Below are positions 10,157 to 46,248 of a stretch of DNA of 64,000 nucleotides, one piece after another (the first letter of the stretch is position 1; each line of letters starts with the position of its first letter). The notes beneath the pieces are model-generated. The model did no database searches and was not told the DNA's origin. It saw only the letters and a program-made list of their open reading frames with translations. The DNA lies in the IMG/VR virus record IMGVR_UViG_3300044733_004754; one strand, 5' to 3'. Made by a program: the position numbers and the translations under genes. Source of the DNA: a virus.

Positions 10157-10168
10157 ACAGGTAATACA

Positions 10169-13038: not shown

Positions 13039-13039
13039 A

Positions 13040-13468
13040 ATGGCACTGGTTACAAGAGTAAAAACATCAACACCTGTCCGCCGAAAGCAAGAACTTTATT
13101 CTGATTTTTTTACTGACCTGCTTAGTTTAGATGTAACGCGTGATATCGCTAAGGCTATGAATGAAGACGCTGTTAAGCAGTCGATTCGTAATCTCCTACT
13201 CACAAACAGAGGCGATCGATTGTTTAATAACACGCTAGGAAGCGACATATACTCATTACTGTTTGAGAACAGTAGCCCAGCTTTGGAGCAAACACTATCC
13301 GATTACATTAAGACAACAATAGAAAATTATGAACCACGTGCAGAATTAATCGATGTAGTTGTAGATAGCGAGGCGGATGAACATGAAGTGTTGGTTGTCA
13401 TAAATTTTCGTGTTCTAAATAAGACTGAACCTGTTTCTCTCGAGCTAGTTTTAAATAGGATCCGATAA
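13040..13468 (+). CDS. gp25: Baseplate wedge subunit gp25
   Basis: YSD, NE.AVKQSIRNLLLTN.GDR.F...GS.I..LLFE and I..YEPR motifs. Confidence 0.92.
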   Translation: MALVTRVKTSTPVRRKQELYSDFFTDLLSLDVTRDIAKAMNEDAVKQSIRNLLLTNRGDRLFNNTLGSDIYSLLFENSSPALEQTLSDYIKTTIENYEPRAELIDVVVDSEADEHEVLVVINFRVLNKTEPVSLELVLNRIR

Positions 13469-20697: not shown

Positions 20698-20705
20698 CAG
20701 TAAAG

Positions 20706-29043: not shown

Positions 29044-29273
29044 AATATCGTCCAGATACAAGCGACTCTAATTATATTCGAGATCCTCTGTCCAAAGCTG
29101 TTCTAAATATTGATATGGCAGGATATGAACGGTTCAAAACGGAACGAGACTTCATACTAAGGCAGCAACAACTTGAAAATAGTGTGCATGATCTTAAAAA
29201 AGATTTGAATGAATTTAAAGACTTAATTAAACAGTTAATTAACGGAAACACAAATGGCAAGACCAATAGCTAA
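29040..29273 (+). CDS. Small coiled-coil hypothetical protein following the VrlC-like genes
   Basis: YIRD..SKAVLN.D...Y...K then coiled coil; overlaps both neighbours. Confidence 0.6.
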   Translation: MKYRPDTSDSNYIRDPLSKAVLNIDMAGYERFKTERDFILRQQQLENSVHDLKKDLNEFKDLIKQLINGNTNGKTNS

Positions 29274-31334: not shown

Positions 31335-33128
31335 ATGGCTGATACGTCAAGCAATGTTCAATTCAAGGTTGAAAATGGTCTCCTTGTTTTAGGTACCGCA
31401 AATGTTGCTGGACCAGCAGTGTTCAATGCCAACGTTGACATTAACGGGTCATATCTTTCTGTTACGGCAAATCTTCAAAGTAGCCTGGTTCCATTAAATA
31501 ACACCTATTCACTTGGTAACGCAACATCGCGCTGGGCGTTGAGCGCAATGGGCGGTAGTTTTGTTGACAGTGTTTCAGTTACTAACACCTTATCAACAGG
31601 TAATACAACAATAACCGGTTTCGTCAACGTATCATCCACAGCAAATATTGGTGGTGCAGCGACATTGAGAGGCACGCTAACGGTAAATGGTGCTGTAACT
31701 ATTGCCAATACTCTAGCTACAGGTAATACATCCATAACAGGTACACTGGCTGCTAATAATACAACTATAACAGGGTTTGTTAATGTATCATCAACAGCAA
31801 ATATCGGTGGTGCCACGTCGTTAAGAAGTACGTTGGTTGTAAACGGTGCTGTAACTATTGCCAATACTCTAGCTACAGGTAATACATCCATAACAGGGTT
31901 TGCAACAGTATCCACAACCCTTACTGTTACAGGAGCGACAACACTTTCCAATACTCTTTCTGTAACAGGAAACACCACTCTTTCGAACACGCTAGCTGTT
32001 ACTGGTAATACATCTCTCTCTAATAGTTTAATCGTAACTGGTAATACGACCTTATCAAATACACTGGCTGTAACTGGTAACGTCGTTCTATCGAACACAT
32101 TAGCTGTAACTGGTAATGTGACGTTTTCTAATACGTTAGCGGTTACAGGTAATACCACTTTTTCAAACACTATTAATATTGCCGGTATCACAACCTTACG
32201 TAGCGCTGCCAATGTAGTTGGAGCAGCTGCAGCCTTCAATGCATTGACGGGTGTTGCAAACACGACGGAGTTCATCACCACAACGGCAGCACATGGCTTT
32301 AGTAATGGTGATCTGGTTCAGTACATTGTATCGACTGGTAATACAGCTGTAACAGGTCTTGCAAATGGAACAAGTTACTACGTGGTTGAGGCGAATTCAA
32401 CTGCATTCAAGTTATCCTCGTCGTATGGTGGATCAGTCATAAATCTAACCGCCAGTGTTAGTGAAGTTGGACATACTCTTACACCCCAACGAATTGTTCT
32501 ATCAACGAATGGTAATATTGATAGTTCGTTAGGATTAGCTAACGTTGGCTCTTTACGTGTATTAGGGACCGCTGTTGTAAACGGTGCAGTAACGCTAGCT
32601 AGTACGTTAGGTGTTACTGGAGCAGCAACATTTTCAAACACAATATCCGTAACAGGTAATGCGACCCTGTCAAACACGCTTGCTGTTACTGGTGCAACGA
32701 CACTATCAAATACACTTGTTGTTTCGGGTAACGCAACATTTGACACAGATTTGCTTTTCATTGATGCAGTAAACAACAGAATTGGATTCAAGAACACATC
32801 ACCAAGCTCAACCGATCTAATAACTATATCAGGTAATACTGTACTTACTGGTTTAAGTGCAGCTATTCGTTTCCTATCGTCAAACGCAACACATAATGCG
32901 TCTATTACAATAGCCGGTAACACAACAAATACACGTACGACGTTTACTACATACGAAGCGAACGCAACAGCAAGTGATGGTGGTTTTATTTTCCAGGCAG
33001 CAAACGGAACAACAACCACATCTGTTCTAGCTTTTAATCAAACTGAGCTAAAGTATAAAACTGGTAATGTTGCACATGCAGGAAATTTTGGGATTTACGA
33101 TGTAAGCGGTACGCGGCTAGGACCATGA
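31335..33128 (+). CDS. Tail fibre-like protein with 12-aa repeats and one gp7-type repeat domain
   Basis: FKVENGL N-terminus, VP..NTYSLG..T.RW, SNTLAVTGN repeats, HGFSNGDLVQY...YYVV domain and FID..NNRIG. Confidence 0.65.
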   Translation: MADTSSNVQFKVENGLLVLGTANVAGPAVFNANVDINGSYLSVTANLQSSLVPLNNTYSLGNATSRWALSAMGGSFVDSVSVTNTLSTGNTTITGFVNVSSTANIGGAATLRGTLTVNGAVTIANTLATGNTSITGTLAANNTTITGFVNVSSTANIGGATSLRSTLVVNGAVTIANTLATGNTSITGFATVSTTLTVTGATTLSNTLSVTGNTTLSNTLAVTGNTSLSNSLIVTGNTTLSNTLAVTGNVVLSNTLAVTGNVTFSNTLAVTGNTTFSNTINIAGITTLRSAANVVGAAAAFNALTGVANTTEFITTTAAHGFSNGDLVQYIVSTGNTAVTGLANGTSYYVVEANSTAFKLSSSYGGSVINLTASVSEVGHTLTPQRIVLSTNGNIDSSLGLANVGSLRVLGTAVVNGAVTLASTLGVTGAATFSNTISVTGNATLSNTLAVTGATTLSNTLVVSGNATFDTDLLFIDAVNNRIGFKNTSPSSTDLITISGNTVLTGLSAAIRFLSSNATHNASITIAGNTTNTRTTFTTYEANATASDGGFIFQAANGTTTTSVLAFNQTELKYKTGNVAHAGNFGIYDVSGTRLGP

Positions 33129-33129
33129 A

Positions 33130-36100
33130 ATGGCAAGACCACTTAGAGCAAGATATGTTACAGCAAGTACAAGTGACGGTGTTCAGGAGATGTCGGATAG
33201 CGACATCAATGACCTTGTTATTCCTAGGATAACCAACTTATTTTACGCTGCATCAAATACATCTGGCTACGGTAACAAACTCGAACTAAGAACTACACCA
33301 CCAACTTGGAATTATGTTACTGGTGGGACTGTTCTTGATGTGTTTCCAACAGCTTTACCGCCCATCGGGACACATCCAGTAACTTCTTCGTCAACAACAT
33401 ACACGTTGTACCAAAATCTTGACACTGCATTGACAACAAACTTTGATCTTATAACCAAACCTGTTAAAACAGAGGCAAGTGGTGGTGTTCAAAAGATTCA
33501 ACAGTTTTCAAACAATGAAATCAGAGATGATATTCATAGTAAAGTTATTGCTGAAATATCTGTTGGGGCACAAGGAGCTTACTGGCTTGGAACTTCACCA
33601 CCAGGAACAGGTACGTGGATTGTTGTATCCTCAATAAACGATACTTTTGTTAACTCGACAAGCAATAGCACGCAAACAACCACATATAATTTGTATCAGC
33701 GCTCTACGAATAGTGGGTATGGTACAAAGAGGCCTTTAAAAGGTACAGCGAACGCTCTTACAGAGATGTCCGATGCTGAAATTGACACAATGACAGCGGC
33801 TATACGTGATTGTATTGCGGCTGGTATTGGTAGATATCAAATATCGACTACATCACCAACGCCTGGTACTTGGGTAGCTCGTGGTTCTTTCACAGATACA
33901 CAGAATGGTATAGAGGATCAATCATATTCCGGTAGTTACTTGGGTACTTTTACAGGTGCGTTCAGTGGCATTTATAATCAAGCATTCACAGGAGCTTATC
34001 AGGGACAGTTTAATCGGGCATTTACAGGTAACTTTATTGATACTTCTAAATTTACTGGTGCATTTGCAGGTGTGTATCAGCAAAATTTTACAGGTATCTA
34101 TTCACGTATTTTTACTCGTGATACAAACACCTCGTTTACGGGTGTTTATCAGAACACATATACAGGTAATTACACAGGTTTATTTGCGGGTGCATACTCA
34201 CAGGTATTCTCCGGTGGATATTTGGGAAGTTATCAAGGCTCTACTTTTACTGGCGGCTTCAACCAGACTTTTGCTGGTACGTATGTGGGAACATTTACAG
34301 GACCATATTCAGGAAATTTCCAGGGCGTAACATATTCAGGCGGATTCAATCAAAATTTTACTGGCGTATATGTAGGGGCGTTTTCAAGACCATATGCTGG
34401 GAACTTCCAAGGTATAACATATTCGGGTGGATATAATCAGACTTTTGCCGGTACGTATGTGGGAACATTCACGGGACCATATTCTGGTTCTTATCAGGGT
34501 ACAATATATCCTGGTGGGTATAATCAGACGTTTGCTGGAACATACAATCAAACGTTTACAGCTCAATACTCAGGGGATTTCCAGGGCGTAACATATTCAG
34601 GCGGTTACAATCAGACTTTCATAGGTGTATACGCAGGATCATTTTCAAGACCATATGCTGGGAATTTTCAAGGTATAACATATTCAGGTAGCTACAATCA
34701 AACCTTTGCCGGTACGTATAATCAAAGTTTTACCGGTGGATTTGTAAATAATTATGCCGGGACCTACTCACAGGCGTTCAGTGCCACGTACGCTGGTGGA
34801 TATGTTGGGGACTTTTCAAGAGCATATACAGGTTCATATCAGAACACATATTCAGGGGCATATGCAAATACGTGGTCTCGAATATTTTCAAGAGCGTGGA
34901 CGGGATCCTATACTGCTGCATATACGGGCGATTATACTGGTGCATATACGAAGGCCTTTGCGCGACTTTTCACAGGAACATATACAGGCGCTTGGATTGG
35001 TAACTACACACGTGGCTTTGTAGGCCTATATGGTTCAACATTCTCAAGAGGCTTCTCCTCCTTTTTCGTGGCCGCGTACACTTCAACGTATGCAGGAACT
35101 TATACAGGTAACTACACACGAGCTTTCACACCATCGTTTCAAGGATCGTATGCACTTCCTTCTGTAGGCTCCTACGATGGGGATTACATAGCAGGTGGAT
35201 TTACTGGGCCTTTCAACATCACGTATTATACAGGTACATATCAGGGCACATATAACAGCTTTTTCACGGGTACGTATGAAGGTGCTTTCTCACGTATATT
35301 TGCCGGTAGTTATGCTGGTACATACCAAGACCCCTATACAATAACATCATTTACGGGGCCATTTGCTGGTACAGGTTATTTTACAGGATCGTACGTTGGC
35401 AATTACCAAGGTAATTTTGGCGCTAGTTATCAAACGACATTCCAGGGATTTTATTCGGGTTTATATACGCAGGCCTTTTTGAGAGCGTGGACGAACGTAT
35501 TTGTATCAAGCTGGACATCACTGTATGCTGGTACATACTCAAGAGCATTTACAGGTGAATATCTCCAAAACTACATTGGATCGTATGAAGGAACATTCAG
35601 TAGAGAGTTCTCAGCCCCATATCAGGGATCATATGAGAATAGTTGGTCAAGAATATTTACTGGTGATTGGACGGGGGGTTTTAGTACTAATTACACTGGT
35701 GGGTATGTTAATTTTTGGACAGGGTCTTACACGAGTACATATTCCAGGGTTTTTTCGGGAGCTTATACTGGTGTAATTACATACACGGGTGGGTTTGTTG
35801 GGTTATATGCAAATACGTGGGCAGGCAGTTACACAGGACAATTTACTGGTGGCTATACTAGGGCGTTCACGGGTGACTATACGGCTACTTGGTCAGGATC
35901 CTATACCGGTGCGTACTCACAAAACTTTACCGGTTCGTATACAGGGACCTTTACTGGTGGATATACGGCTACGTGGACCGGTACCTACTCAAGAGTATTC
36001 ACAGGACAGTTTACAGGCGGATATACCGCGGTATTTACTGGTGCTTATACATCAACCTGGACAGGTTCATATGTAGGTTCATACTCACAAAACTTTTCTG

Positions 36101-36678
36101 GTAACTATGTAGGAACATTTACGGGTGCGTATACATCCACTTGGACAGGTTCTTACACCGGATCGTATTCACAAAACTTTACTGGTATATACACAGGCAC
36201 GTTCACAGGGGCATACACGGCTACGTGGACGGGTGTATATTCTGGTGCGTATTCACGAAATTTTACAGGCGCATATACGGGTACATTCAGCGGCAACTAC
36301 ACAGCTACCTTTGCTGGGACGTACACGGGCGGTTATACACGAGCATTTTCTGGTACATACGCTGGTAACTACACGGGCGGGTTTATTGGTCAGTGGACAG
36401 GAGTATACAGCCGTATATTCACTGGTTTATATACCGGCGCGTTCACAGGCGTTTTTATTGGTAACTTTACAGGTAGTTATGTTGGGACATATTCACGTAT
36501 ATTTACGGGTGCATATACTGGTTTGTTCACTGGCTCATATTCTGGAGCATATACGGGTGCTTTCAGTGGTAACTATGCTAATAATTTTACACGATTATTT
36601 ACAGGGGCATACTCGGGTCTAACCGTCACCGGTACAACGACGACGACTACATATACATTATGGGTTAGAACAGCTTGA
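33130..36678 (+). CDS. YTG-repeat filament/fibre protein A (1182 aa)
   Basis: Three ~95-aa N-terminal repeats (RPL...QEMS..[DE]I...GTW), about 900 aa of [YFW]-x-G-x repeats, C-terminus TLWVRTA. Confidence 0.7.
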   Translation: MARPLRARYVTASTSDGVQEMSDSDINDLVIPRITNLFYAASNTSGYGNKLELRTTPPTWNYVTGGTVLDVFPTALPPIGTHPVTSSSTTYTLYQNLDTALTTNFDLITKPVKTEASGGVQKIQQFSNNEIRDDIHSKVIAEISVGAQGAYWLGTSPPGTGTWIVVSSINDTFVNSTSNSTQTTTYNLYQRSTNSGYGTKRPLKGTANALTEMSDAEIDTMTAAIRDCIAAGIGRYQISTTSPTPGTWVARGSFTDTQNGIEDQSYSGSYLGTFTGAFSGIYNQAFTGAYQGQFNRAFTGNFIDTSKFTGAFAGVYQQNFTGIYSRIFTRDTNTSFTGVYQNTYTGNYTGLFAGAYSQVFSGGYLGSYQGSTFTGGFNQTFAGTYVGTFTGPYSGNFQGVTYSGGFNQNFTGVYVGAFSRPYAGNFQGITYSGGYNQTFAGTYVGTFTGPYSGSYQGTIYPGGYNQTFAGTYNQTFTAQYSGDFQGVTYSGGYNQTFIGVYAGSFSRPYAGNFQGITYSGSYNQTFAGTYNQSFTGGFVNNYAGTYSQAFSATYAGGYVGDFSRAYTGSYQNTYSGAYANTWSRIFSRAWTGSYTAAYTGDYTGAYTKAFARLFTGTYTGAWIGNYTRGFVGLYGSTFSRGFSSFFVAAYTSTYAGTYTGNYTRAFTPSFQGSYALPSVGSYDGDYIAGGFTGPFNITYYTGTYQGTYNSFFTGTYEGAFSRIFAGSYAGTYQDPYTITSFTGPFAGTGYFTGSYVGNYQGNFGASYQTTFQGFYSGLYTQAFLRAWTNVFVSSWTSLYAGTYSRAFTGEYLQNYIGSYEGTFSREFSAPYQGSYENSWSRIFTGDWTGGFSTNYTGGYVNFWTGSYTSTYSRVFSGAYTGVITYTGGFVGLYANTWAGSYTGQFTGGYTRAFTGDYTATWSGSYTGAYSQNFTGSYTGTFTGGYTATWTGTYSRVFTGQFTGGYTAVFTGAYTSTWTGSYVGSYSQNFSGNYVGTFTGAYTSTWTGSYTGSYSQNFTGIYTGTFTGAYTATWTGVYSGAYSRNFTGAYTGTFSGNYTATFAGTYTGGYTRAFSGTYAGNYTGGFIGQWTGVYSRIFTGLYTGAFTGVFIGNFTGSYVGTYSRIFTGAYTGLFTGSYSGAYTGAFSGNYANNFTRLFTGAYSGLTVTGTTTTTTYTLWVRTA
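33920..36615 (+). repeat. Coding tetrapeptide tract with 87-bp x6 (34234-34755) and 84-bp x6 (35878-36381) super-repeats
   Basis: Gln codons at 34234, 34321, 34408, 34495, 34582, 34669; Trp codons at 35890, 35974, 36058, 36142, 36226. Confidence 0.9.
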
Positions 36679-36684
36679 GAAAAA

Positions 36685-39600
36685 ATGCCACTTCGTCCGT
36701 TATACTATAATACATCGTTATCCGGATTACAGGAGATGTCCAATACGGACATCGATGGATATATTTCAAATGTAATAGGTTCTGATTTTGCTTCGACAGA
36801 AGATATTGGATCTCTCATCGTGCAGGATCCAGGTGATCCGGTTCCTGCAAATTCTACCTCCATTGGTACATGGGTTGATACACGCTACGATCAACAAATA
36901 GGTGACCATCCTGTTTCAGAAGCGAATCTTGTTTATTCAAACACAACCATTTATCAAAGATTGGGTGGTGGACCATTAACGGACCCTTCAATGGTACGAC
37001 CTATTTGCTGGAATGATACGCTTGATGGCGTACAGCAAATGGCGAATACGGATATTGACACAACCATTATTGCGAAGGCCGTTTCTTATATTGTCAATGG
37101 TGGTGTCGGTTCATATGTCCTGCAGCCGTCTGCACCAGTAACTGGTACGTGGGTTGTGAGAGGGCGATTGCAGAATACTGAACGTCCATACTTTGCCAAT
37201 GAAACATTTCTCTGGCAAAAAACGTCTGAAAGTCCAAGCGGCTCTATAAAGCCTTTGAAATGGAGTACTAATGCTTTACGTGAGATGTCAAATAACGACA
37301 TCAAAACCTTGACACATAGAGCAAGAAATTACATCGCCAATACAGGTATAGGCACCTATCAATTATCCACAACCACCCCGTCATCAGGCGGAACGTGGGT
37401 TGAGGCGGGTACGGGATTCAATGATACCCGTCAAGAAATAAGACCTCAAACTTATAATGCTCAAGTGTATACAGCAACTTTTTCTGGTGTATATACACGG
37501 GCTTTTGTTGGCAAGTATCAAGGTAGTTTTACTGGTTTGTATGGGATACCATACACACGTGAATTCACAGGTACATTCGCAGATACGTTTACCGGGGCTT
37601 TCAATCAGCAATTCACCGGAGCTTTTTCTAGCGGATATGCAACAACGTACACGGGTACGTTTAATCAGCAGTTCACTGGACAATTCACTGGCGCTTATAC
37701 TGGTGGTTATACAGGAACATTTACCGGTGCTTACACGGGCGGATATACAGGTGCATTCACTGGTGTATATTCGGCGCCTTATGTGGGTAGCTTCACTGGT
37801 GTATATGTAGGGACGTTTAATCAGCAGTTTACTGGCGCGTTCAGTGGTGTTTATCTAGGGACATATCAACAAAATTTCACTGGTGATTATGTTGGTGGCT
37901 TTACAGGTGCATTCAGCGGTGCTTATGCTCAAGCATTTACGGGTGCATATAGTTCAATCTTTACAGCAGCATATAGCGGTTCGTTTACAGGCCAGTTTTC
38001 GGGTTTATACACAGGCGCTTTCACGGGTGTATATGTAGGAAGTTACGTGGGGAAATTCACAGGCGCATATACGGCTATCTATAGTAGATTGTTTACAGGG
38101 GACTACACAGGTATTTATACTGGTGCATATAGTCAGAACTTCACCGGTGCCTTTACTGGTCAATTCAATCAAGTGTTTACAGGTACGTTCGCTGGTGGTT
38201 ATGCAGGAACGTTTAACCAAGTATTTACGGGCACATTTGCAGGTACTTACAGTAGCCTGTTCTCTGCAATATACACAGGCAACTACACTGGTATATACAG
38301 CCAAGCGTTTACAGGTGCATTCACGGGTATTTTTAATCAGGCTTTCACAGGTAACTTTGTTGGTAATTATGTTGGTAACTATCAGCAAACATTTACGGGA
38401 GCTTTTGCAGGAACATACAGCAGTTTATTCACGGGAAGCTACACAGGTAACTACACAGGATTATATAACCAAGTATTTACAGGAACGTTTGCTGGAACAT
38501 ATAGCCAAGTATTTTCGGGTAGCTATACCGGTAATTACACGGGATTATATAACCAAGTTTTTACAGGTACTTTTGCGGGAACATATAGTAGATTATTCAC
38601 AGGAAGCTATACAGGCAATTACACAGGCATATACAATCAAATATTCACAGGTACCTTCGCAGGCACTTACAGTAGATTATTCACGGGAAGCTATACAGGT
38701 AATTACACTGGCATATACAATCAAGTATTTACAGGTGCGTTTGTAGGAAATTATGCCGGGTCGTTTACTGGTTCGTTTGCTGGTGGATACACAGGTGCTT
38801 TTTCCGGTTCATACACAGGCGCTTACACAGGAATTTATGCAGGTTCATATGTAGGAAATTACCAGGGAAACTTTACTGGTTCATTTGCAGGAACATATAG
38901 TAGATTATTTATAGGTTCGTATTCGGGTGGGTACACACGTGCATTCACAGGAGCTTACACAGGAATTTATTCGGGCGGGTACGTAGGCTCCTTCACGGGT
39001 TTGTACTCCGGTGGGTATGTAGGTTCTTTCACAGGTATTTACTCAGGCGGATACACGAGAGCTTTCTCGGGATCATACACTGGATCATATACTGGAACAT
39101 ACGCCGGAACGTACACAGGTTTGTATTCAGGTGGGTATGTCGGATCGTTTACGGGCATATACTCAGGCGGATACACGAGGGCTTTCTCGGGATCATACAC
39201 TGGATCATATACTGGAACATACGCCGGAACGTATACAGGCATATATGCTGGTGGATATGTGGGGTATTTTACGGGCATATACTCAGGCGGATACACGAGA
39301 GCTTTCTCGGGATCATACACTGGATCATATACTGGAACATACGTAGGAACGTATACAGGCATATATGCTGGTGGGTATGTGGGGTATTTTACTGGAATAT
39401 ACTCTGGTGGGTATACAAGAGCTTTCTCAGGATCATATACTGGATCATATACTGGAACATACGCCGGAACGTATACGGGTTTGTATTCAGGTGGTTATGT
39501 CGGATACTTTACAGGCATATATTCAGGTGGTTATGTTGGATACTTTACAGGAATATATGGTGGCACGTACAGTAGGTTATTCACAGGTGCCTACGCGGGT

Positions 39601-42600
39601 GGATATATTGGGTACTTCACAGGAATATATGGCGGTACGTATAGTAGATTATTCACAGGCGCCTACGCGGGTGGGTATGTTGGTTACTTTACAGGAATAT
39701 ATGGTGGTACATATAGTAGATTATTTACAGGTACATACTCTGGAAGTTATCAAGGCAATTTCACGGGGCTCTATTCAGGTACATATAGTAGATTATTTAC
39801 TGGCAGCTATACAGGATTATATTCCGGAAACTTTCAGGGTAACTTTACAGGTGCTTTTGCTGGTACGTATAGTCGATTGTTTACGGGTTTATATACAGGA
39901 TCATACTCTCGTGGGTTCACGCGGGTCTTCATCGGGACTTATCAAAGAGGGTTCATAGGGTCATATGCAGGTAGCTTCAATAATACATTCACACCAACAT
40001 TTGCTGGAGCTTACGCTCGGGCCTTTATTGGAGTTTATGCAGGATCGTACCAAAACCCATTCACTGGAATATATTTCACTGGTTATTACACTGGTTTTTA
40101 CATTAATTTTTTTACAGGAACTTATCAGGGAGCGTTCACGCGTTTGTTCACAGGGGCATATACAGGCGTTTATCAAGATCCTTACGTCATTTTAACTTTT
40201 ACGGGGCCATTTGCTGGTCCAGGTTTTTTCGCGGGTACCTATGGGGGTTCTTATGTAGGTGTGTTTGGCGCCTCATATAGTAGGCTATTTACAGGCTTTT
40301 ATTCAGGATCATATACTGGTGATTTTACGGGAGCGTTTGCTCGGGTGTTCACAGCAACATGGACAGGGTCCTATGCAGGATCTTATCAAGGCAACTTTAC
40401 AGGAAGTTTTGCGGGTACGTATAGTAGATTGTTTACTGGGCAGTATTCTGGCGCTTATGCAGGATCCTATCAGGGTAACTTCACAGGTACTTTTGCTGGT
40501 ACGTATAGTAGATTATTTACGGGTACGTACTCGGGCAACTACCAAGGCAACTTCTCCGGGATATATGCAGGATCATATGCACAGACGTTTACTGGAATAT
40601 ACTCCGGCAATTACCAAGGCAACTTTTCCGGAACATATGCGGGTGCATATGCACAGACTTTCACAGGAATATATTCCGGCAATTATCAAGGCAACTTCTC
40701 AGGAACATATGCAGGAGCATATGCACAAACATTTACAGGTGCATATGCAGGGGCATATGCTCAAACATTTACAGGTACTTACGCAGGCGGATATACAGGC
40801 TATTATTCTGGCGCCTATGCTGGTACATATTCGGGTGCATTCAATCAAACATTTACAGGTGCATATGCAGGGGCATATGCTCAAACATTTACAGGTACTT
40901 ACGCAGGCGGATATACAGGCTATTATTCTGGGGCATATGCTGGAACGTATTCGGGCTCATTTAACCAGACATTTACGGGTGCATTTGCAGGGGCATATGC
41001 TCAAACATTTACAGGTACTTACGCAGGCGGATATACAGGCTATTATTCTGGCGCTTATGCTGGTACATACTCAGGAGCATTTAACCAGACATTTACAGGT
41101 GCATTCGCCGGTGTATATCAACAAACCTTTACGGGTACGTATTCAGGTGGATATATTGGATACTATTCTGGCGCTTATGCTGGTACATACTCAGGAGCAT
41201 TTAACCAGACATTTACAGGTGCATTCGCTGGTGTATATCAACAAACATTTACCGGTTCTTACTCGGGTACATATCAGCAAACGTTTACAGGTGGGTATGC
41301 AGGGACATATTCAGGGTCTTATAATCAGACATTTACAGGCGCTTTTTTAGGTAGTTATGAAAGTTCTTTCACTGGATTTTATTCAGGTGCCTATAGTAGA
41401 TTATTCACTGGTAGCTACACAGGTGCGTATACTGGAATATATGTGGGTTCCTATGTTGGTACATTTAATCAAACATTTACGGGTAGTTTTGCAGGCACAT
41501 ATTCAAGAGTATTTTCGGGATTATATTCCGGTGGCTACACGGGTGCATTTACTGGAATATATGCCGGTGCTTATGTTGGCAACTTCCAAGGCAATTTCAC
41601 AGGTAACTACTCTGGTGGCTACACAGGTGCATTTACTGGAATATATGCTGGTGCTTATGTTGGCAACTTCCAAGGCAACTTCACAGGAAATTATTCAGGT
41701 GGATATACAGGAACATTTTCGGGAATATATGCTGGTAGTTATGTAGGAGGGTATCAGGGCAACTTCACAGGAAATTATTCAGGCGGATATACCGGCACAT
41801 TTACTGGTGTATATGCAGGCGCTTATGTTGGAAGCTATCAAGGGAATTTCACTGGAAGTTTTATTGGTGGCTACACACGTGTGTTCTCGGGCACATATTC
41901 CGGTGTATATACGGGTGTTTACACAGGTCAATTTACAGGGATATACTCAACGTTATTTACAGGTGCATTCAGTGGGATATACGCAGGCGGATATGGTGGG
42001 AGTTTTCTAGGAAACTTCTCAGGGCTGTATTCGGGCGGATACACAGGAGCGTTTACAGGTATTTACACAGGTATCTACACAGGTGGGTATACTGGCACCT
42101 TTACTGGAGCATACTCAACACAGTTTACAGGTACATTTACAGGTGGATATGCAGGCACGTATGCCGGTGCCTACCAAGGCAACTTCACAGGCGTGTTCCA
42201 AGGTACGTACCAACAATCATTTACAGGTAATTACACCGGCATATACAGCCAAGCATTTAGTGGTACATATAACCAAGCATTCACAAGAAACTTTACTTTT
42301 GATTATACCGGTACGTTTTCGGGACCATATGTAGGATTTTTCACTGGAAGTTATTCACAAGTCTTCAGTAGATTTTTTACAGGATCATATACGGGTCAGT
42401 TCACAGGCGCTTATTCGGGCATATACAGTCAAGCCTTTACAGGTGCGTTCTCTGGCAATTATACAGGTATCTACAGTCAAGCATTCACAGGTGCTTACAC
42501 GGGTATATTCAATCAAACATTCACTGGCGATTTCGTAGGAAAATTTAATCAAACCTTCAGCGGTATTTTCATTGGTTCCTATAATCAACAATTCACTGGT

Positions 42601-43113
42601 GCTTTTAGTGGTGGGTATACGGCGGTGTATACTGGCGCTTACAGTCAAGCCTTTACTGGTACATTCAGCGGCATTTATACTGGTCAGTTTTCTGGTGCGT
42701 ACACGGGAGCATTTGGTTCATTGTTTACAGGAGTATACAGCCGTATATTCACTGGATCTTATTCGAGCGCATTCACAGGCCAGTTTAACCAATCGCCTGT
42801 TTACACGAGCGTGTATTCAAGACCATATGCTGGCGTGTATGGTCAGACGTTTAGTAGTACGACATATCCAGGTGCGTTTTATGCACAAGCGTTTACAGGA
42901 GAGTACACAGGATCGTATACAGGAACCTCTATCTTTGGGTTCACAAGTAGTTTTTCTAAAGCATTTACTAGTTTGTTAGGTTCTTTTTCATCGTTATTTA
43001 CAGGACTATATACTAACATAACAGGGCAATATCTAGCAGCTTGGTCGGGGTTGACAATAATGTCAACGCCGGAAACAATTCAAACACTTAAACTTTGGGT
43101 ACGAACAGCATGA
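36685..43113 (+). CDS. YTG-repeat filament/fibre protein B (2142 aa), paralogue of A
   Basis: Same three N-terminal repeats, about 1860 aa of tetrapeptide repeats, C-terminus KLWVRTA. Confidence 0.7.
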   Translation: MPLRPLYYNTSLSGLQEMSNTDIDGYISNVIGSDFASTEDIGSLIVQDPGDPVPANSTSIGTWVDTRYDQQIGDHPVSEANLVYSNTTIYQRLGGGPLTDPSMVRPICWNDTLDGVQQMANTDIDTTIIAKAVSYIVNGGVGSYVLQPSAPVTGTWVVRGRLQNTERPYFANETFLWQKTSESPSGSIKPLKWSTNALREMSNNDIKTLTHRARNYIANTGIGTYQLSTTTPSSGGTWVEAGTGFNDTRQEIRPQTYNAQVYTATFSGVYTRAFVGKYQGSFTGLYGIPYTREFTGTFADTFTGAFNQQFTGAFSSGYATTYTGTFNQQFTGQFTGAYTGGYTGTFTGAYTGGYTGAFTGVYSAPYVGSFTGVYVGTFNQQFTGAFSGVYLGTYQQNFTGDYVGGFTGAFSGAYAQAFTGAYSSIFTAAYSGSFTGQFSGLYTGAFTGVYVGSYVGKFTGAYTAIYSRLFTGDYTGIYTGAYSQNFTGAFTGQFNQVFTGTFAGGYAGTFNQVFTGTFAGTYSSLFSAIYTGNYTGIYSQAFTGAFTGIFNQAFTGNFVGNYVGNYQQTFTGAFAGTYSSLFTGSYTGNYTGLYNQVFTGTFAGTYSQVFSGSYTGNYTGLYNQVFTGTFAGTYSRLFTGSYTGNYTGIYNQIFTGTFAGTYSRLFTGSYTGNYTGIYNQVFTGAFVGNYAGSFTGSFAGGYTGAFSGSYTGAYTGIYAGSYVGNYQGNFTGSFAGTYSRLFIGSYSGGYTRAFTGAYTGIYSGGYVGSFTGLYSGGYVGSFTGIYSGGYTRAFSGSYTGSYTGTYAGTYTGLYSGGYVGSFTGIYSGGYTRAFSGSYTGSYTGTYAGTYTGIYAGGYVGYFTGIYSGGYTRAFSGSYTGSYTGTYVGTYTGIYAGGYVGYFTGIYSGGYTRAFSGSYTGSYTGTYAGTYTGLYSGGYVGYFTGIYSGGYVGYFTGIYGGTYSRLFTGAYAGGYIGYFTGIYGGTYSRLFTGAYAGGYVGYFTGIYGGTYSRLFTGTYSGSYQGNFTGLYSGTYSRLFTGSYTGLYSGNFQGNFTGAFAGTYSRLFTGLYTGSYSRGFTRVFIGTYQRGFIGSYAGSFNNTFTPTFAGAYARAFIGVYAGSYQNPFTGIYFTGYYTGFYINFFTGTYQGAFTRLFTGAYTGVYQDPYVILTFTGPFAGPGFFAGTYGGSYVGVFGASYSRLFTGFYSGSYTGDFTGAFARVFTATWTGSYAGSYQGNFTGSFAGTYSRLFTGQYSGAYAGSYQGNFTGTFAGTYSRLFTGTYSGNYQGNFSGIYAGSYAQTFTGIYSGNYQGNFSGTYAGAYAQTFTGIYSGNYQGNFSGTYAGAYAQTFTGAYAGAYAQTFTGTYAGGYTGYYSGAYAGTYSGAFNQTFTGAYAGAYAQTFTGTYAGGYTGYYSGAYAGTYSGSFNQTFTGAFAGAYAQTFTGTYAGGYTGYYSGAYAGTYSGAFNQTFTGAFAGVYQQTFTGTYSGGYIGYYSGAYAGTYSGAFNQTFTGAFAGVYQQTFTGSYSGTYQQTFTGGYAGTYSGSYNQTFTGAFLGSYESSFTGFYSGAYSRLFTGSYTGAYTGIYVGSYVGTFNQTFTGSFAGTYSRVFSGLYSGGYTGAFTGIYAGAYVGNFQGNFTGNYSGGYTGAFTGIYAGAYVGNFQGNFTGNYSGGYTGTFSGIYAGSYVGGYQGNFTGNYSGGYTGTFTGVYAGAYVGSYQGNFTGSFIGGYTRVFSGTYSGVYTGVYTGQFTGIYSTLFTGAFSGIYAGGYGGSFLGNFSGLYSGGYTGAFTGIYTGIYTGGYTGTFTGAYSTQFTGTFTGGYAGTYAGAYQGNFTGVFQGTYQQSFTGNYTGIYSQAFSGTYNQAFTRNFTFDYTGTFSGPYVGFFTGSYSQVFSRFFTGSYTGQFTGAYSGIYSQAFTGAFSGNYTGIYSQAFTGAYTGIFNQTFTGDFVGKFNQTFSGIFIGSYNQQFTGAFSGGYTAVYTGAYSQAFTGTFSGIYTGQFSGAYTGAFGSLFTGVYSRIFTGSYSSAFTGQFNQSPVYTSVYSRPYAGVYGQTFSSTTYPGAFYAQAFTGEYTGSYTGTSIFGFTSSFSKAFTSLLGSFSSLFTGLYTNITGQYLAAWSGLTIMSTPETIQTLKLWVRTA
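37450..43050 (+). repeat. Coding tetrapeptide tract with 84/120/72-bp then 72/120/84-bp super-repeat blocks
   Basis: 120-bp units start at 39061, 39181, 39301, 39421 and at 40741, 40861, 40981, 41101. 72-bp units start at 39541, 39613, 39685 and at 40531, 40603, 40675. 84-bp units start at 38461, 38545, 38629 and at 41521, 41605, 41689, 41773. Confidence 0.9.
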
Positions 43114-43553
43114 AACGAACTATTGTAAATCCGCATTGGGTAAACAATGCAAGAACAGTTATCTCTGCTGAATTTCATTATGATGACGGTAGGGTAGCGC
43201 AGGCAACGATTTCCGAGTCGGATGTTACTAATCCAGACCTTGTTGAAATTAAATCAAAATTTACGGACGAGCAACTTGAAGCTAACACGCGTAAAAAAAT
43301 TCAAGAGATCAATGCCGAGCGTGAGCGTAAGCATCAGGAAGAATTGGCTAAGGCTCAACGAAAACAACAAGAAGAATTGTTTGCAGCTAAGCTAAGAATT
43401 TTTGAGATCGACGCCATTAAAGAATCAGATAATCGAGTGCTCAAAGCAAAGATAAGAAAGTCAAAGAGTGATGTTGAGGCTATGGCGTGGGCCTCGGCTT
43501 TGTTGCTTGATATAGCCCAAAAGGAAATAGCAACAAATTCAACGGCGGAGTAA
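43110..43553 (+). CDS. Hypothetical protein, possible fibre assembly chaperone
   Basis: ATGA overlap with filament gene B; NP.W.N..RT.I N-terminus resembling tail-fibre assembly proteins; coiled-coil C-terminal half. Confidence 0.45.
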   Translation: MKRTIVNPHWVNNARTVISAEFHYDDGRVAQATISESDVTNPDLVEIKSKFTDEQLEANTRKKIQEINAERERKHQEELAKAQRKQQEELFAAKLRIFEIDAIKESDNRVLKAKIRKSKSDVEAMAWASALLLDIAQKEIATNSTAE

Positions 43554-43555
43554 AA

Positions 43556-44290
43556 ATGAATATTCGTAATGGTTTTTTAATTGTTGCATCACAACTCAAA
43601 GAGTATCTAGATTCGGCAAATTATCTGGCGAGTAGTATAAAAGACTACTATCCCGAAGCACACATCACTCTTTTTGTAACTCCAAAGCTAGAGCAATATG
43701 CTGACCGCAGTGCCTTTGATCTAGTTATATCTGAGGATGTTCCGAACCATGTGCGTACAAAGTTGTACGCTCTCTCCAGAACACCATACACTGAGCTTAC
43801 TGTTTATGTTGATGCAGATATGGAGTGCATGCACTCTGATGTCTCGAATATTTGGGATGAAATGCCTGAGGATTGTGACCTCCTGATTACAAAAATACGT
43901 CCCTATAACGGTAAAGAGGATCGTTGGCCGGGAGGTGCGACGATACCTCAAGGCCGTATGATATATCATGGTGGTTTTTTTATGTACAGATCAAACCCAC
44001 AAACACTTGAGTTTATGCGTAGGTGGTGGGAGGATTATAAATTACAAAGAAGTGAACCATGGCCTTATCCTGAAGAAGAGTGTAGGAAGTCCTTTGCTCA
44101 ATGGGATCAATTTACTTTTTGGAAACTTTTAGCTGTTGACAAGCTAGATGTTAAGGTAGGTGTTTTTGATGATGATGCAAGATGGAATTTTGTAAATGGT
44201 TATTATCCAAAAGAAGCCAAAAAAGAGATCGTTTTTTGGCACCACACTATTCCTTCTAAGCACGAAAATATAGGGATCAAAGCTAAATGA
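43556..44290 (+). CDS. Putative GT-A fold glycosyltransferase
   Basis: A..SIK...P...ITLF, K..AL..TPY...VYVDAD (DxD), Y.GGFFMY and WDQF motifs. Confidence 0.65.
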   Translation: MNIRNGFLIVASQLKEYLDSANYLASSIKDYYPEAHITLFVTPKLEQYADRSAFDLVISEDVPNHVRTKLYALSRTPYTELTVYVDADMECMHSDVSNIWDEMPEDCDLLITKIRPYNGKEDRWPGGATIPQGRMIYHGGFFMYRSNPQTLEFMRRWWEDYKLQRSEPWPYPEEECRKSFAQWDQFTFWKLLAVDKLDVKVGVFDDDARWNFVNGYYPKEAKKEIVFWHHTIPSKHENIGIKAK

Positions 44291-44919
44291 AAGAAATTCA
44301 AATAAACAATAAAGAACTTAAACAAATTTTAAATGATTGGTTAGAGGTTCTTTTGAGAGCAGATCGTTCGAAATATCCCTATCAAGCAGGCGTGGGTAAA
44401 ACTGGATTAGTGACTCCAGAGTATGCATGTAGTATGGAATACTTGCAACACATGCAAAGTAAAAAAGTAGACGGATTCCCAGAAACAACACATGGTGTTG
44501 ATCTAATGAGGTTTCGACCACCACACCAATCCCTTGCCGACGCTTTGGTAAAGCTAGACTACGATCTACTCAATTGGTCTGGATCGCGCAACAATGCGGT
44601 TAAGATGCTCTATCCTAAAGGCGGGTATATGGGCTGGCATCATAATGCAAACGCGCCCGGTTATAACATTCTTTTATCATGGTCTGAAAAAGGTACAGGT
44701 TTCTTTCGTTACCAAGATCCAATAACAAAAGAGATTGTCACGATGCAGGACACGCCTGGGTGGACGTGTAAAGTTGGATATTATGGACCATGGCATGAGC
44801 CGGATCGAATCTACTGGCACTGCGCAAGCGCACATGAAGAAGAGCGGGTAACGCTAGGGTATATCATTCCTCATGAAGGGATGTGGAATAATATGTGCGA
44901 TGATATTCAGTCAGCGTAA
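44287..44919 (+). CDS. Putative cupin / 2OG-Fe(II) oxygenase-like protein
   Basis: YP.GGYMGWHHN...YWHC....R.TLGY jelly-roll pattern; Asn at the usual HxD acidic position. Confidence 0.5.
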   Translation: MKEIQINNKELKQILNDWLEVLLRADRSKYPYQAGVGKTGLVTPEYACSMEYLQHMQSKKVDGFPETTHGVDLMRFRPPHQSLADALVKLDYDLLNWSGSRNNAVKMLYPKGGYMGWHHNANAPGYNILLSWSEKGTGFFRYQDPITKEIVTMQDTPGWTCKVGYYGPWHEPDRIYWHCASAHEEERVTLGYIIPHEGMWNNMCDDIQSA

Positions 44920-45647
44920 TATTTTCTAAAGAAGTGTTCGTAGTGTTTGGGTAGGGTTGGACCGTTAAAAAGTATCACAGGTATTTTTTTAACGGTCTCA
45001 ACAAACTTACTTTCTCTATATGCTTTTTGGACTGGGTCGTACAACGCATTCTCTTCAATGTCTACGCCGTAAAGAAAAGAATAAAATTTTCTTGTTGGAA
45101 AATATCCAATATTCACGTTGATATTTTCTTTCTCATAAAACAAAAAAGAGTCCATACCCCATCTATATTTGTTCATAAATGATTCAGGATCTCTAGATAC
45201 AAACTCCCAAATTTTTTGTGGTTTGTTTTCTTGCCACGTCATGCAACTACTGTTAAACGGATGGTGAAATATTGGGAAACCATAGTCCCATTTTGGTCTC
45301 CACTCTGCTTCAATTAGTGTTAGCTCATTATGATTAAAAGCAGTGATGTCGTTAATGTCGTGTTTAATGACAACATCGAGATCAAAAAAAATACGATCAC
45401 CAGTTGGTAGTTGATCGTTTACTTGCTCACTGAACAGAAACATCTTATTGTAGACGACGATATCAAACTCGTTTTCAACATATTCAATGATATTGATACC
45501 ATGTGAAATCCCTTCGGGATTGTCCGTGTAGCAGAACATCTTGAATGGTCTTGCTATGTTCTTGCGGCACATCCTAAATAAGTTATTGACCATAGAGCTA
45601 GGGTATTTCGTACCAACTTTAACACATAAAATAGTGAGCATTTCCAT
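44907..45647 (-). CDS. Putative GT-A fold glycosyltransferase
   Basis: ILCVK.GTKY....V..L..M...N....F.C.TD, NK..LF, FFDLDVVI (DxD), FNSS.M.W and F.G motifs. Confidence 0.7.
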   Translation of the reverse strand: MEMLTILCVKVGTKYPSSMVNNLFRMCRKNIARPFKMFCYTDNPEGISHGINIIEYVENEFDIVVYNKMFLFSEQVNDQLPTGDRIFFDLDVVIKHDINDITAFNHNELTLIEAEWRPKWDYGFPIFHHPFNSSCMTWQENKPQKIWEFVSRDPESFMNKYRWGMDSFLFYEKENINVNIGYFPTRKFYSFLYGVDIEENALYDPVQKAYRESKFVETVKKIPVILFNGPTLPKHYEHFFRKYYAD

Positions 45648-46248
45648 GGATATTCAATATCTAACAAAAATTTCAGATGTTTTAAGGAAGGGTGTGTCTA
45701 CAGGGTTAAATGTGTTTGATTTCGCTAATTCATTCAGTCAAACACAACTCGAATCAAAAAAATGGTTGGTTGAAGAATTAAGTAAAGTTTCATTCAAGAA
45801 ACAACCCACCATACTTATATTGGGTGGATGGTACGGAAGCTATCTTGTTCCACTGCTACGGCAGCATGTAAAACCTGATCACATATATTTCAATGATATC
45901 GACAGATCGTGTTTAGACGTTGCAAAAGAGTTACATACCAGATACAAAGAAGATAGAAGTATAAGTTTCCACCATTTTGATGCTACAGCAATGTTTCATC
46001 ATTTTGATGCTGATATCGTTATAAACACTTCATGTGAGCACATGGAGCAGTACGAGGAGATGTTGAAGGAGGGCCAAGATACGTTATTCGTACTGCAGTC
46101 GTGTGATGAGGAAAGTGACCCGGGTCACGTAAACGTTTCCAAATCAACACAAGATTTTTTACACAAAGTTGGGTTAACGCGCGTATACATGCAGTCGAGA
46201 AAGAACCTTGGACACAAAAACAGGTTTTTGATCATAGGTAAACAATAG
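45646..46248 (+). CDS. Putative class I SAM-dependent methyltransferase
   Basis: SK.WL, ILILGGWYG (motif I), DID, DIVINTSCEHM, LQS, H.N and RF..IG motifs. ATG 45646 preferred over the ORF-track start. Confidence 0.7.
   Translation: MDIQYLTKISDVLRKGVSTGLNVFDFANSFSQTQLESKKWLVEELSKVSFKKQPTILILGGWYGSYLVPLLRQHVKPDHIYFNDIDRSCLDVAKELHTRYKEDRSISFHHFDATAMFHHFDADIVINTSCEHMEQYEEMLKEGQDTLFVLQSCDEESDPGHVNVSKSTQDFLHKVGLTRVYMQSRKNLGHKNRFLIIGKQ

What the first reader, a model, noticed from the sequence alone, without database searches (positions are those of the whole stretch)
36685..43113. Giant YTG-repeat protein with mirror-ordered super-repeats: a candidate out-and-back beta-hairpin filament
Seen: about 1860 aa of [Y/F]-x-G-x. 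The higher-order DNA repeat blocks run 84 bp (~38380-38750), 120 bp x4 (39061-39540), 72 bp x3 (39541-~39750), then an irregular centre (QNPFTGIYF...QDPYVILTFTGPFAGPGFF, ~40050-40230), then 72 bp x3 (40531-40746), 120 bp x4 (40741-41220) and 84 bp x4 (41521-41860). Each pair of blocks has a different sequence but the same period and a similar copy number, and all three pairs centre near 40130-40145. The arms are not nucleotide inverted repeats, so the symmetry is at protein level. Known: a 4-residue period in a beta strand puts aromatic and Gly residues on one face, and cross-strand aromatic-Gly pairs stabilise antiparallel sheets. Inference: the N- and C-arms pair in register as one long antiparallel ribbon, roughly 300 nm if fully extended at ~0.33 nm per residue, and duplications in one arm were matched in the other. 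I do not recognise a described phage fibre with this architecture.
Basis: partly seen in the sequence, partly recalled or inferred. Interest (0 to 1): 0.92.

Follow-up and report, generated by a model that had tools for sequence, protein, structure and literature searches.

The report
Giant out-and-back hairpin phage fibre
A 2142-residue protein of a T4-like phage runs about 870 residues out from a small base domain, turns, and comes back in exact register. Relatives change the length of both halves together, so this looks like an undescribed way of building a long virus fibre.

Summary

**In the window**
- ORF 36685-43113 (2142 aa) has about 450 [YF]-x-G-x tetrads. The 4-residue register is unbroken over 262-1130 and 1182-2037, around an irregular centre.
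- TRF finds 84/120/72 | 72/120/84-bp arrays. All pair midpoints fall at 40128-40142.

**New evidence**
- The Phe/Tyr pattern of the reversed N arm matches the C arm at one offset only: 77.5% here and 87-91% in four orthologues, against a 51-54% background.
- Orthologues of 1792-2142 aa each keep one mirror register. 35 of 45 arrays have a same-period partner at the mirror position.
- In a 120-cluster subfamily the N arm spans 12 length classes (62-116 aa). C minus N is the same in 116 of 120.
- One orthologue has a 173-aa globular insert in one arm, and the register resumes after it.
- AlphaFold2 puts the last strand (LWVRTA) back in the third module of a three-module beta-prism base at pLDDT >90. 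The tract therefore replaces one hairpin turn.

**Limits and status**
- The 3D form is not shown; the tract scores pLDDT <50.
- The family (673 representative proteins, 308-4046 aa) has no Pfam family, PHROG function or paper.
- The scan had already noted this same stretch in another window of the same genome.

The parts
36685..43113 (+). Gene B: 2142-aa fibre protein (P0001)
   Evidence: Open frame. Intact orthologues of 1792-2089 aa in L002, L003, L008, L009 and L010.
36685..37440 (+). Base: three tandem modules of about 85 aa (aa 1-100, 101-185, 186-252). Each has a helix (..LQEMS..DI..) and ends in a beta-hairpin (GTW.. strand, turn, ..LW.RT strand).
   Evidence: 34% identical to the base of paralogue A, E 1e-29, with an internal repeat detected. 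The base of homologues folds at pLDDT >90. Top fold matches in both models are the MACPF C-terminal / MABP beta-prism, Z 5.7-8.2.
37468..40074 (+). N (outgoing) arm: 218 [YF]-x-G-x tetrads, aa 262-1130, no register break
38404..38749 (+). 84-bp (28-aa) array x4.1, N arm
   Evidence: TRF. Protein array 564-697 has its mirror image at 1607-1740; the real partner lies at 1604-1731.
38998..39527 (+). 120-bp (40-aa) array x4.4, N arm
   Evidence: TRF. Protein array 741-963 has its mirror image at 1341-1563; the real partner lies at 1327-1556.
39526..39732 (+). 72-bp (24-aa) array x2.9, N arm
   Evidence: TRF. Protein array 938-1030 has its mirror image at 1274-1366; the real partner lies at 1271-1362.
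40075..40227 (+). Irregular aromatic and Pro-containing centre (aa 1131-1181). Holds the mirror centre (aa 1152, nt about 40138) and the QDPY motif at aa 1164. Proposed chain reversal and distal tip.
   Evidence: Register break. About 75 aa are conserved with paralogue A. The lowest orthologue identity lies here.
40228..42795 (+). C (returning) arm: 214 tetrads, aa 1182-2037
40528..40739 (+). 72-bp array x2.9, C arm; partner of 39526-39732
40729..41262 (+). 120-bp array x4.4, C arm; partner of 38998-39527
41524..41881 (+). 84-bp array x4.3, C arm; partner of 38404-38749
43045..43113 (+). Closing strand (..TLKLWVRTA plus stop) that returns to module 3 of the base
   Evidence: It matches the last hairpin strand of modules 1 and 2. 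The equivalent strand in homologues is modelled at pLDDT 92-97 (E501-517; E389-413). The C-terminal motif is nearly universal in the family.
33130..36678 (+). Gene A: 1182-aa paralogue (P0002) with the same architecture and a homologous centre
   Evidence: Mirror Phe/Tyr agreement is 78% at centre aa 718, against a tract midpoint of 714.
43095..44919 (+). Three accessory genes that follow family members in four distant genomes: 152-aa K/E-rich protein, 244-aa glycosyltransferase-like protein, 210-aa His-rich protein
   Evidence: 31-42% identity to the genes in the same position in phage C48C1, L004 and L005. The Pfam Nucleotid_trans hit is just below cut-off.

Best explanation
Gene 36685-43113 encodes a virion fibre of an uncharacterised family that is widespread in aquatic T4-like phages.

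Architecture. The first ~250 residues form three tandem modules that together make a pseudo-threefold beta-prism. In the third module the tight turn of the terminal beta-hairpin is replaced by about 1800 residues of [YF]-x-G-x tetrads. The chain runs out for about 870 residues, reverses in a ~50-residue irregular aromatic and Pro-containing tip (aa 1131-1181), and returns in register. The last strand (LWVRTA) then closes the prism. The two arms are paired antiparallel along their whole length.

Evolution. Length changes by tandem duplication in one arm followed by an equal duplication at the mirror position in the other.

Shown: the arms are held in mirror register, and both ends of the tract meet in the base.

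Inferred:
- The pairing is a two-stranded beta-ribbon, with aromatic and Gly residues on one face and Thr/Ser/Ala on the other. That would be about 290 nm if straight.
- The base docks at the baseplate periphery.
- The variable tip, and lateral domains in relatives, bind the host surface.
For: Mirror order in the window protein
- Three strong array pairs and one weak pair share one centre.
- The Phe/Tyr mirror pattern peaks at a single offset: 77.5% here and 87-91% in L003, L008, L009 and L010, against 51-54% with sd 5-7% at other offsets.

Paired evolution
- Five orthologues of 1792-2142 aa each keep one register over the full arms. 35 of 45 arrays have a same-period partner at the mirror image, while the set of periods differs between orthologues: 28/40/24, 28/40/52/80, 28/56/84/24 and 28/24/36.
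- Window versus L003: deletions total 164 aa in the N arm and 172 aa in the C arm.
- In 120 clusters of the P0182 subfamily, C minus N is constant in 116, across 12 N-arm lengths.
- Distant homologues show 24|24, 20,22|22,20, 27|26 and 22|22 array pairs. Periods that differ by one residue (27|26, and 29|28 in paralogue A) fit a beta-bulge on one strand of an antiparallel pair.

Insert test. L002 has a 173-aa globular insert in the N arm. The mirror sum is 2251 before it and 2424 after it, a difference of 173, so the partner residue moves only from 1599 to 1597.

Topology
- The family is conserved at the N terminus and at the last ~20 residues, with tracts from about 45 to about 3700 aa.
- Module 2 has a tight hairpin where module 3 has the tract.
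- AlphaFold2 places the C-terminal strand in the base at pLDDT >90 in two models.
- In the second model the tract is two near-continuous strands with one reversal. Strand breaks mirror each other (i+j about 652-654) and place the N-arm PKT unit opposite the C-arm TSA unit, as the duplication pattern requires. This part is low confidence.

Fibre role
- The gene lies between gp6-gp8-like baseplate genes and neck genes in the window, L004 and L005.
- Conservation is U-shaped. Paralogue A is 97-100% identical to its L002 orthologue at the base and 27-57% in the tract; B is lowest at the centre.
Against: - AlphaFold2 confidence in the tract is below 50 in both models, and one model shows no strands there. 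The low-confidence tract of the other model resembles a folded-up cupin-like sandwich at Z up to 4.5, so a straight filament is not predicted.
- Residue-level covariation was not significant. Double Phe/Tyr changes between orthologues gave Fisher p 0.3-0.7. Mutual information gave only a weak anti-diagonal enrichment in one of two length classes.
- At the thresholds used, 10 of 45 orthologue arrays and about half of the arrays in distant homologues have no detected partner.
- Four of 120 subfamily clusters break the length rule.
- There is no experimental evidence that the protein is in the virion.
- A lone two-stranded ribbon hundreds of nm long has no structural precedent that I know of.
Confidence: 0.78

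Rival explanations
1. The arms pair as above, but the hairpin is not a straight filament. The ribbon is kinked or wound on itself (jelly-roll-like, or a solenoid made from the hairpin), giving a much shorter and thicker body or rod.
For: A jelly roll is topologically a long hairpin wrapped up, so it satisfies every mirror constraint found here. The low-confidence tract of the P0182 model aligns weakly to cupins, Z 3-4.5. The amphipathic ribbon has one aromatic face, and that face needs burying.
Against: Array periods range from 16 to 84 aa within and between orthologues. A regular wound structure should need a fixed rung length. Tract length varies about 80-fold in the family, which suits an open-ended rod better than a closed domain. 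The supporting model has pLDDT 31-47.
Confidence: 0.14
2. The pairing is between chains. Two fully extended molecules lie antiparallel, so the N arm of one pairs with the C arm of the other. Each end carries a domain-swapped base made of the N modules of one chain and the closing strand of the other.
For: It gives the same mirror constraints on arrays, Phe/Tyr pattern and arm lengths.
Against: The shortest members (308-340 aa, tract 45-70 aa) are simple closed domains with a hairpin. The centre is the least conserved part and carries a Pro-containing break, as expected of a free tip rather than a mid-filament joint. A two-headed filament has no obvious place on a baseplate.
Confidence: 0.05
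3. The arms do not pair. The tract is a parallel beta-solenoid, a string of short local hairpins, or a disordered silk- or resilin-like tether, and the mirror order is coincidence or a by-product of repeat turnover.
For: AlphaFold2 gives no confident structure for the tract. Gly/Tyr-rich tetrapeptide repeats occur in elastomeric proteins (general knowledge).
Against: DNA duplication cannot create protein-level mirror order, and there are no inverted DNA repeats. This reading does not explain single-offset Phe/Tyr mirroring in six proteins, constant C minus N in 116 of 120 clusters, or register resumption after a 173-aa insert.
Confidence: 0.03

Closest known systems
Tip 'needle' domain of the phage T4 long tail fibre protein gp37 (PDB 2XGF; from my own knowledge, not tested here)
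   Same: It belongs to a T4-type phage fibre. The chain runs to the distal tip and folds back, so the receptor-binding tip is not at a chain terminus.
   Different: The gp37 needle is an intertwined trimer of roughly 100 residues per chain with His-bound iron. Here one chain has about 870 residues per arm, a 4-residue repeat, no sequence similarity (no Pfam or PHROG hit) and a three-module base within one chain.
Antigen I/II adhesins of streptococci (from my own knowledge, not tested here)
   Same: A single chain forms an out-and-back stalk. Repeats in the outgoing region pair with a matching number of repeats in the returning region, with a domain at the far tip.
   Different: That stalk is an alpha-helix wound with a polyproline-II helix, is about 50 nm long, and belongs to a bacterial surface protein. 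The composition and period here point to beta-strands, and the tract is up to tens of times longer.
SMC / Rad50 antiparallel coiled-coil arms (from my own knowledge, not tested here)
   Same: A globular head is assembled from the N and C termini. A long intramolecular antiparallel arm has an apex in the middle of the chain, and arm length is constrained on both strands.
   Different: Those arms are alpha-helical coiled coils in ATPases that act on DNA. There is no similarity in sequence or function.
C-terminal beta-prism of MACPF proteins and the MABP domain (2QP2, 8B6V, 3TOW, 6SB1)
   Same: This is the best fold match of the base in two independent models: Z 8.2 (rmsd 3.5 A, 114 aligned), 8.1 (3.7 A, 122), 6.8 (3.5 A, 113) and 5.7 (5.0 A, 119), well above the next base matches. 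[quoted passage not shown]
   Different: Identity is 8-14% and Z is in the tool's grey zone (typical best Z is 7-8 for models without a clear match). Each module here also has a helix. There is no MACPF domain, and the metal-binding motif was not examined. This is a fold resemblance only.
Beta-solenoid and triple-beta-helix or beta-spiral phage fibres (T4 gp5/gp12, adenovirus shaft; from my own knowledge)
   Same: They are repetitive, Gly-containing, beta-rich fibrous parts of virions.
   Different: Those have a fixed coil or repeat length, run one way from N to C, and are trimers. Here the super-periods vary from 16 to 84 aa and the two halves are mirror-matched.

Membership tests
The YxG-tract beta-prism fibre family defined here (673 representative proteins; no database name) | N-terminal three-module base with the ..PL[KR]..LQEMS.. 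start | tested here: met
   P0001 aa 1-262 is 34% identical to P0002, E 1e-29. P0002 finds 673 representative proteins with E up to 0.001, 101 of them up to 1e-30.
The YxG-tract beta-prism fibre family defined here (673 representative proteins; no database name) | C-terminal closing strand ..T.[LK]L[WY].R.A | tested here: met
   P0001 ends LKLWVRTA. The motif is present in most of the 150 listed hits.
The YxG-tract beta-prism fibre family defined here (673 representative proteins; no database name) | Mirror-matched arms between the base and the closing strand | tested here: met
MACPF-associated / MABP beta-prism fold (base domain only) | [quoted passage not shown] | tested here: inconclusive
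   The same four chains top the list for two models (Z 5.7-8.2), and there are three sequence modules. Z is in the tool's grey zone, and the models are of homologues, not of P0001 itself.
MACPF-associated / MABP beta-prism fold (base domain only) | Metal-coordinating motif repeated once per sheet (DLN in Mpf2Ba1, PMC10344926) | not tested
   A ..DT.. motif recurs after each GTW strand, but its position in the model was not examined.
T4-type tail fibre proteins (gp12, gp34-gp37) | Sequence match to the family profiles | tested here: not met
   No Pfam or PHROG family at E up to 0.01 for P0001 or P0002. tblastn of the bases finds no phage record.
T4-type tail fibre proteins (gp12, gp34-gp37) | Homotrimeric, one-way N-to-C fibre | not testable with these tools
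   The oligomeric state is unknown.
Beta-solenoid repeat proteins | Constant coil length along the repeat region | tested here: not met
   Only the 4-aa unit is constant. Super-periods of 16-84 aa coexist in one protein and differ between orthologues.
Collagen-like / polyproline-II Gly-rich fibres | Gly at every third residue | tested here: not met
   Gly and the aromatic residue recur every fourth residue over 432 units.

The most novel reading that the evidence does not exclude
This would be a new class of fibrous protein. A single chain forms a register-locked, two-stranded antiparallel beta-ribbon tens to hundreds of nanometres long (arms from about 20 to about 1850 residues across the family), grown out of one hairpin turn of a beta-prism domain. 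It evolves by compensated duplications in the two strands and tolerates globular binding domains hung on one strand. It would be the beta-strand counterpart of SMC/Rad50 coiled-coil arms, and a modular, length-tunable scaffold used by many uncultured aquatic T4-like phages to reach their hosts.
Probability: 0.5. Interest if true: 0.93.

Novelty: categorically new. Interest (0 to 1): 0.9.

Why it matters
**New principle for fibrous proteins.** Long fibres are currently known as coiled coils, collagen, beta-helices or beta-spirals, and amyloid. If the arms form a beta-ribbon, this adds a single-chain out-and-back ribbon whose length is set by paired repeats.

**Clear case of compensatory structural evolution.** The family is large: 673 representative clusters at 50% identity, and 981 close hits for one subfamily alone. 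It is wholly unannotated. Arm lengths track each other exactly through at least 12 length classes, and rare one-armed intermediates are caught in metagenomes.

**Relevance to phage biology.** The family names a major unknown gene in the baseplate-to-neck region of uncultured aquatic T4-like phages and points to the middle of the gene as the host-binding end. It also links three conserved accessory genes, one of them glycosyltransferase-like, to fibre assembly or modification.

**Possible use in protein design.** The tetrad repeat with matched arms may offer a rod of programmable length that accepts lateral domains.

Tried and rejected
- **Centre-motif profile.** A profile of the centre (around QDPY) found it only in A and B, so it cannot anchor the whole family.
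- **First search with the P0001 base.** Among proteins of 1178-3749 aa it found nothing. Relatives came from the exhaustive search with P0002 instead.
- **tblastn of the A and B bases against 50,697 phage records.** No match. A distant member finds only phage C48C1, annotated as hypothetical.
- **G001, the nearest held record.** It is a 29-kb fragment without the gene.
- **Whole-family Phe/Tyr mirror scan at unit level.** It works only where register breaks are few. In members with many breaks the best offset is not distinguishable from noise.
- **First version of the array-partner count.** It used a poor tract midpoint and missed true pairs. It was redone.
- **Covariation.** Double Phe/Tyr changes between orthologues were not significant. 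Mutual information with APC on 33-42 sequences was dominated by phylogeny.
- **Foldseek of the whole model against the PDB.** Nothing at E up to 0.001.
- **ESM Atlas feature search.** Only unnamed viral clusters, all scoring below 0.9.
- **Complex prediction, two copies of the 415-aa member.** No verdict (score 0.00). This is not evidence either way.
- **PDB sequence search of two accessory proteins.** Nothing.
- **Literature searches.** No description of the family.
- **Readings considered and dropped.** A collagen-like or PPII reading fails because the period is 4, not 3. A fixed-coil solenoid fails because the super-periods vary.

Full report
**Context**

The window is the structural region of a T4-like myovirus.
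- PHROG matches mark the baseplate hub, gp6-, gp7- and gp8-like wedge proteins (9074-22469), large terminase, sheath, portal, scaffold and major head protein.
- The head protein is at most 70% identical to any isolate, the closest being Stenotrophomonas DLP6 and Sinorhizobium phiM12.
- The finding, gene B (36685-43113, 2142 aa, P0001), follows a 1182-aa paralogue, gene A (33130-36678, P0002). It lies between the wedge genes and the head and neck genes.

**Checking the observation**

- N arm: 84 bp x4.1, 120 bp x4.4, 72 bp x2.9.
- C arm: 72 bp x2.9, 120 bp x4.4, 84 bp x4.3.
- Every pair's edge midpoints fall at 40128-40142.

In protein terms an aromatic residue recurs every fourth position without a single slip over aa 262-1130 (218 units) and again over 1182-2037 (214 units). 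The register breaks only in 1131-1181. No long inverted DNA repeats link the arms.

I added a test that does not depend on the arrays. It compares the choice of Phe or Tyr at the aromatic position, read backwards along the N arm, with the C arm.
- Agreement is 165 of 214 units at one offset (position sum 2304, centre aa 1152).
- All other offsets give 51% with sd 5% and a maximum of 63%. The best parallel offset gives 68%.
- Aperiodic stretches mirror as well, for example 19 of 20 units.
- In the mirrored table, units with Arg or Gln at the Gly position face units made of small residues, for example YSRL opposite YAGA and YAQT opposite YGGT.

**The tract is an insertion in a hairpin of a base domain**

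- The first ~250 residues of A and B are three tandem modules. Each ends in strand GTW.., a short turn, and strand ..LW.RT.
- In module 3 the turn is replaced by the whole tract, and the protein ends ..LWVRTA.
- AlphaFold2 on two homologues (P0016, 519 aa; P0182, 415 aa) models the base and the C-terminal strand at pLDDT >90. The last strand pairs back into the base.
- Both models find the same four top fold matches: 2QP2 (Z 8.2, rmsd 3.5 A, 114 aligned), 8B6V (8.1, 3.7 A, 122), 3TOW (6.8, 3.5 A, 113) and 6SB1 (5.7, 5.0 A, 119). These four share one beta-prism fold with a local three-fold axis (PMC10344926).
- The Z values are in the tool's grey zone, so I treat this as a fold resemblance only.

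Because both ends of the tract sit side by side in one domain, the tract must go out and come back, or else be compact.

**The family**

- An exhaustive search with P0002 finds 673 representative proteins with E up to 0.001. Lengths run from 308 to 4046 aa.
- Nearly all share the N-terminal start and the C-terminal strand. Tracts run from about 45 to about 3700 aa.
- None has a Pfam domain or a name other than 'hypothetical'.
- The only phage record matched is C48C1 (Kyanoviridae), with a 3347-aa hypothetical protein in the same gene order.
- I found no paper on the family.

*Orthologues of B.* Five came from IMG/VR and metagenomes: L002, L003, L008, L009 and L010, 1792-2089 aa and 77-88% identical in the base.

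| Protein | Length (aa) | Mirror sum | Phe/Tyr agreement | Unit pairs |
|---|---|---|---|---|
| window | 2142 | 2304 | 77.5% | 213 |
| L003 | 1796 | 1958 | 91.2% | 170 |
| L008 | 1875 | 2033 | 87.2% | 180 |
| L009 | 2082 | 2236 | 89.8% | 206 |
| L010 | 1792 | 1954 | 91.2% | 171 |

Each of these has a single Phe/Tyr mirror peak spanning the whole arms, against a background of 51-54%. Lengths differ by up to 350 aa, yet no net unpaired change sits in either arm.
- Window versus L003: deletions total 164 aa in the N arm and 172 aa in the C arm, at mirrored places.
- Measured against each protein's own mirror centre, 35 of 45 arrays have a same-period partner at the mirror image.
- The array sets differ between orthologues: 28/40/24, 28/40/52/80, 28/56/84/24 and 28/24/36. 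Paired expansions therefore happened repeatedly.

*The apparent exception, L002.* Its N arm carries a 173-aa non-repeat domain with a weak, sub-threshold CBM_4_9 hit. The mirror sum is 2251 before the insert and 2424 after it. The C-arm partner therefore moves only from residue 1599 to 1597. The ribbon register continues past a domain hung on one strand.

*The P0182 subfamily.* It gave 120 clusters with one recognisable centre motif.
- The N arm takes 12 lengths, from 62 to 116 aa.
- C minus N is identical in 116 of 120.
- One, two or three GAKTY-containing 22-aa units in the N arm face one, two or three VGTSAY-containing units in the C arm.
- Two clusters have one extra N-arm unit (94/89 and 116/111). 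These look like uncompensated intermediates.

*Distant homologues.* Mirrored arrays appear as 24|24, 20,22|22,20, 22|22 and 27|26. Partner periods that differ by one residue (27|26, and 29|28 in paralogue A) are what a beta-bulge on one strand of an antiparallel pair would give.

**What the structure predictions say**

- For P0016 the tract is unstructured at pLDDT <50.
- For P0182 it is two near-continuous strands (249-317 and 335-413) with one reversal at 318-334.
- The strand breaks mirror each other (i+j about 652-654). They put the N-arm PKT unit opposite the C-arm TSA unit, which matches the independent duplication evidence.
- pLDDT there is only 31-47, and the 3D shape weakly resembles a folded cupin-like sandwich.
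- The pairing topology is therefore supported. The straight 290-nm ribbon (870 residues at 0.33 nm each) is inference.
- The wide spread of super-periods argues against a regular wound structure with a fixed rung length.

**Function**

- Gene position is between gp8-like and neck genes, also in L004 and L005.
- Bases are conserved and tracts are variable. Paralogue A against its L002 orthologue is 97-100% identical at both ends and 27-57% in the tract; B is lowest at the centre.
- A relative carries a lateral lectin-like domain.

Together these fit a baseplate-attached adhesion fibre whose distal, host-contacting end is the middle of the chain. Virion location, copy number and oligomeric state are unknown.

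**Rivals**

- A compactly wound hairpin: 0.14.
- An inter-chain, domain-swapped antiparallel pair: 0.05.
- No pairing at all: 0.03.

The last cannot explain the mirror statistics.

**Verdict**

The physical form still needs experiment. I know of no described fibre built this way. The closest analogues are out-and-back stalks made of other secondary structure (antigen I/II, SMC/Rad50) and the short fold-back needle of T4 gp37; these comparisons rest on my own knowledge, not on tests run here.

Noticed in passing
window 33130-36678: Paralogue A (1182 aa) has the same base, closing strand and a homologous ~75-aa centre. Its N arm shifts register by +1 about every 29 aa (six times) while the C arm keeps 28-aa units. 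Mirror Phe/Tyr agreement is 78% at centre aa 718, against a tract midpoint of 714. Its orthologues are 1046 and 953 aa, with roughly paired deletions (about 125 vs 105 aa, and 77 vs 51 aa).
   Followed up: partly
window 15253-20697 (aa ~395-975 = nt ~16435-18177): The gp7-like baseplate wedge protein (1814 aa) carries a ~580-aa, less regular YxG-type tract (139 units, 27 register breaks) inserted after its N-terminal domain. Homologues with the same start (P0042, P0051, P0056) also carry such tracts. The tract is therefore a module used in more than one host domain.
   Followed up: partly
window 43095-44919; also L001 22121-24001, L004 9295-11128, L005 20193-22196: Three genes always follow a family member, whatever its length (415 to 4046 aa). 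They encode a ~155-aa K/E-rich protein, a ~240-aa glycosyltransferase-like protein with a DADME motif (Pfam Nucleotid_trans just under cut-off), and a ~215-aa His-rich protein. Identity is 31-42% across four distant genomes. They may assemble or modify the fibre; the function was not tested.
   Followed up: partly
L002 ~11960-12480 (aa ~655-825 of the B orthologue): A 173-aa globular domain with Cys residues and a ..WGAQLE.. motif is inserted in the N arm only. Its hit to CBM_4_9 is sub-threshold (E 0.004, 18 bits against a cut-off of 25.9).
   Followed up: partly
window 44907-45647 (-) and 45541-46248 (+): Just downstream lie a second glycosyltransferase-like gene on the opposite strand (phrog_1962, E 4e-9) and a methyltransferase-like ORF (Methyltransf_25, sub-threshold). 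The two ORFs overlap by about 100 nt, so one start may be miscalled.
   Followed up: no
window 29254-31326 and 31335-33128: Two adjacent proteins of 690 and 597 aa hit the same PHROGs of unknown function (36281, 5070, 7964) and a 'structural protein' PHROG (697). They are probably further fibre-like paralogues upstream of A.
   Followed up: no
window 22480-26493 and 27007-29043: A 1337-aa and a 678-aa protein match the first half (positions 98-1082) and the last part (1807-2054) of the same 2056-position PHROG (phrog_358). This may be a split or rearranged giant structural gene.
   Followed up: no
proteins P0031, P0043, P0052, P0104, P0145: Another class of metagenomic proteins has the YxG tract at the N terminus and a different, conserved C-terminal domain ending ..FKFKA. 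The tract therefore also occurs outside the beta-prism base.
   Followed up: no
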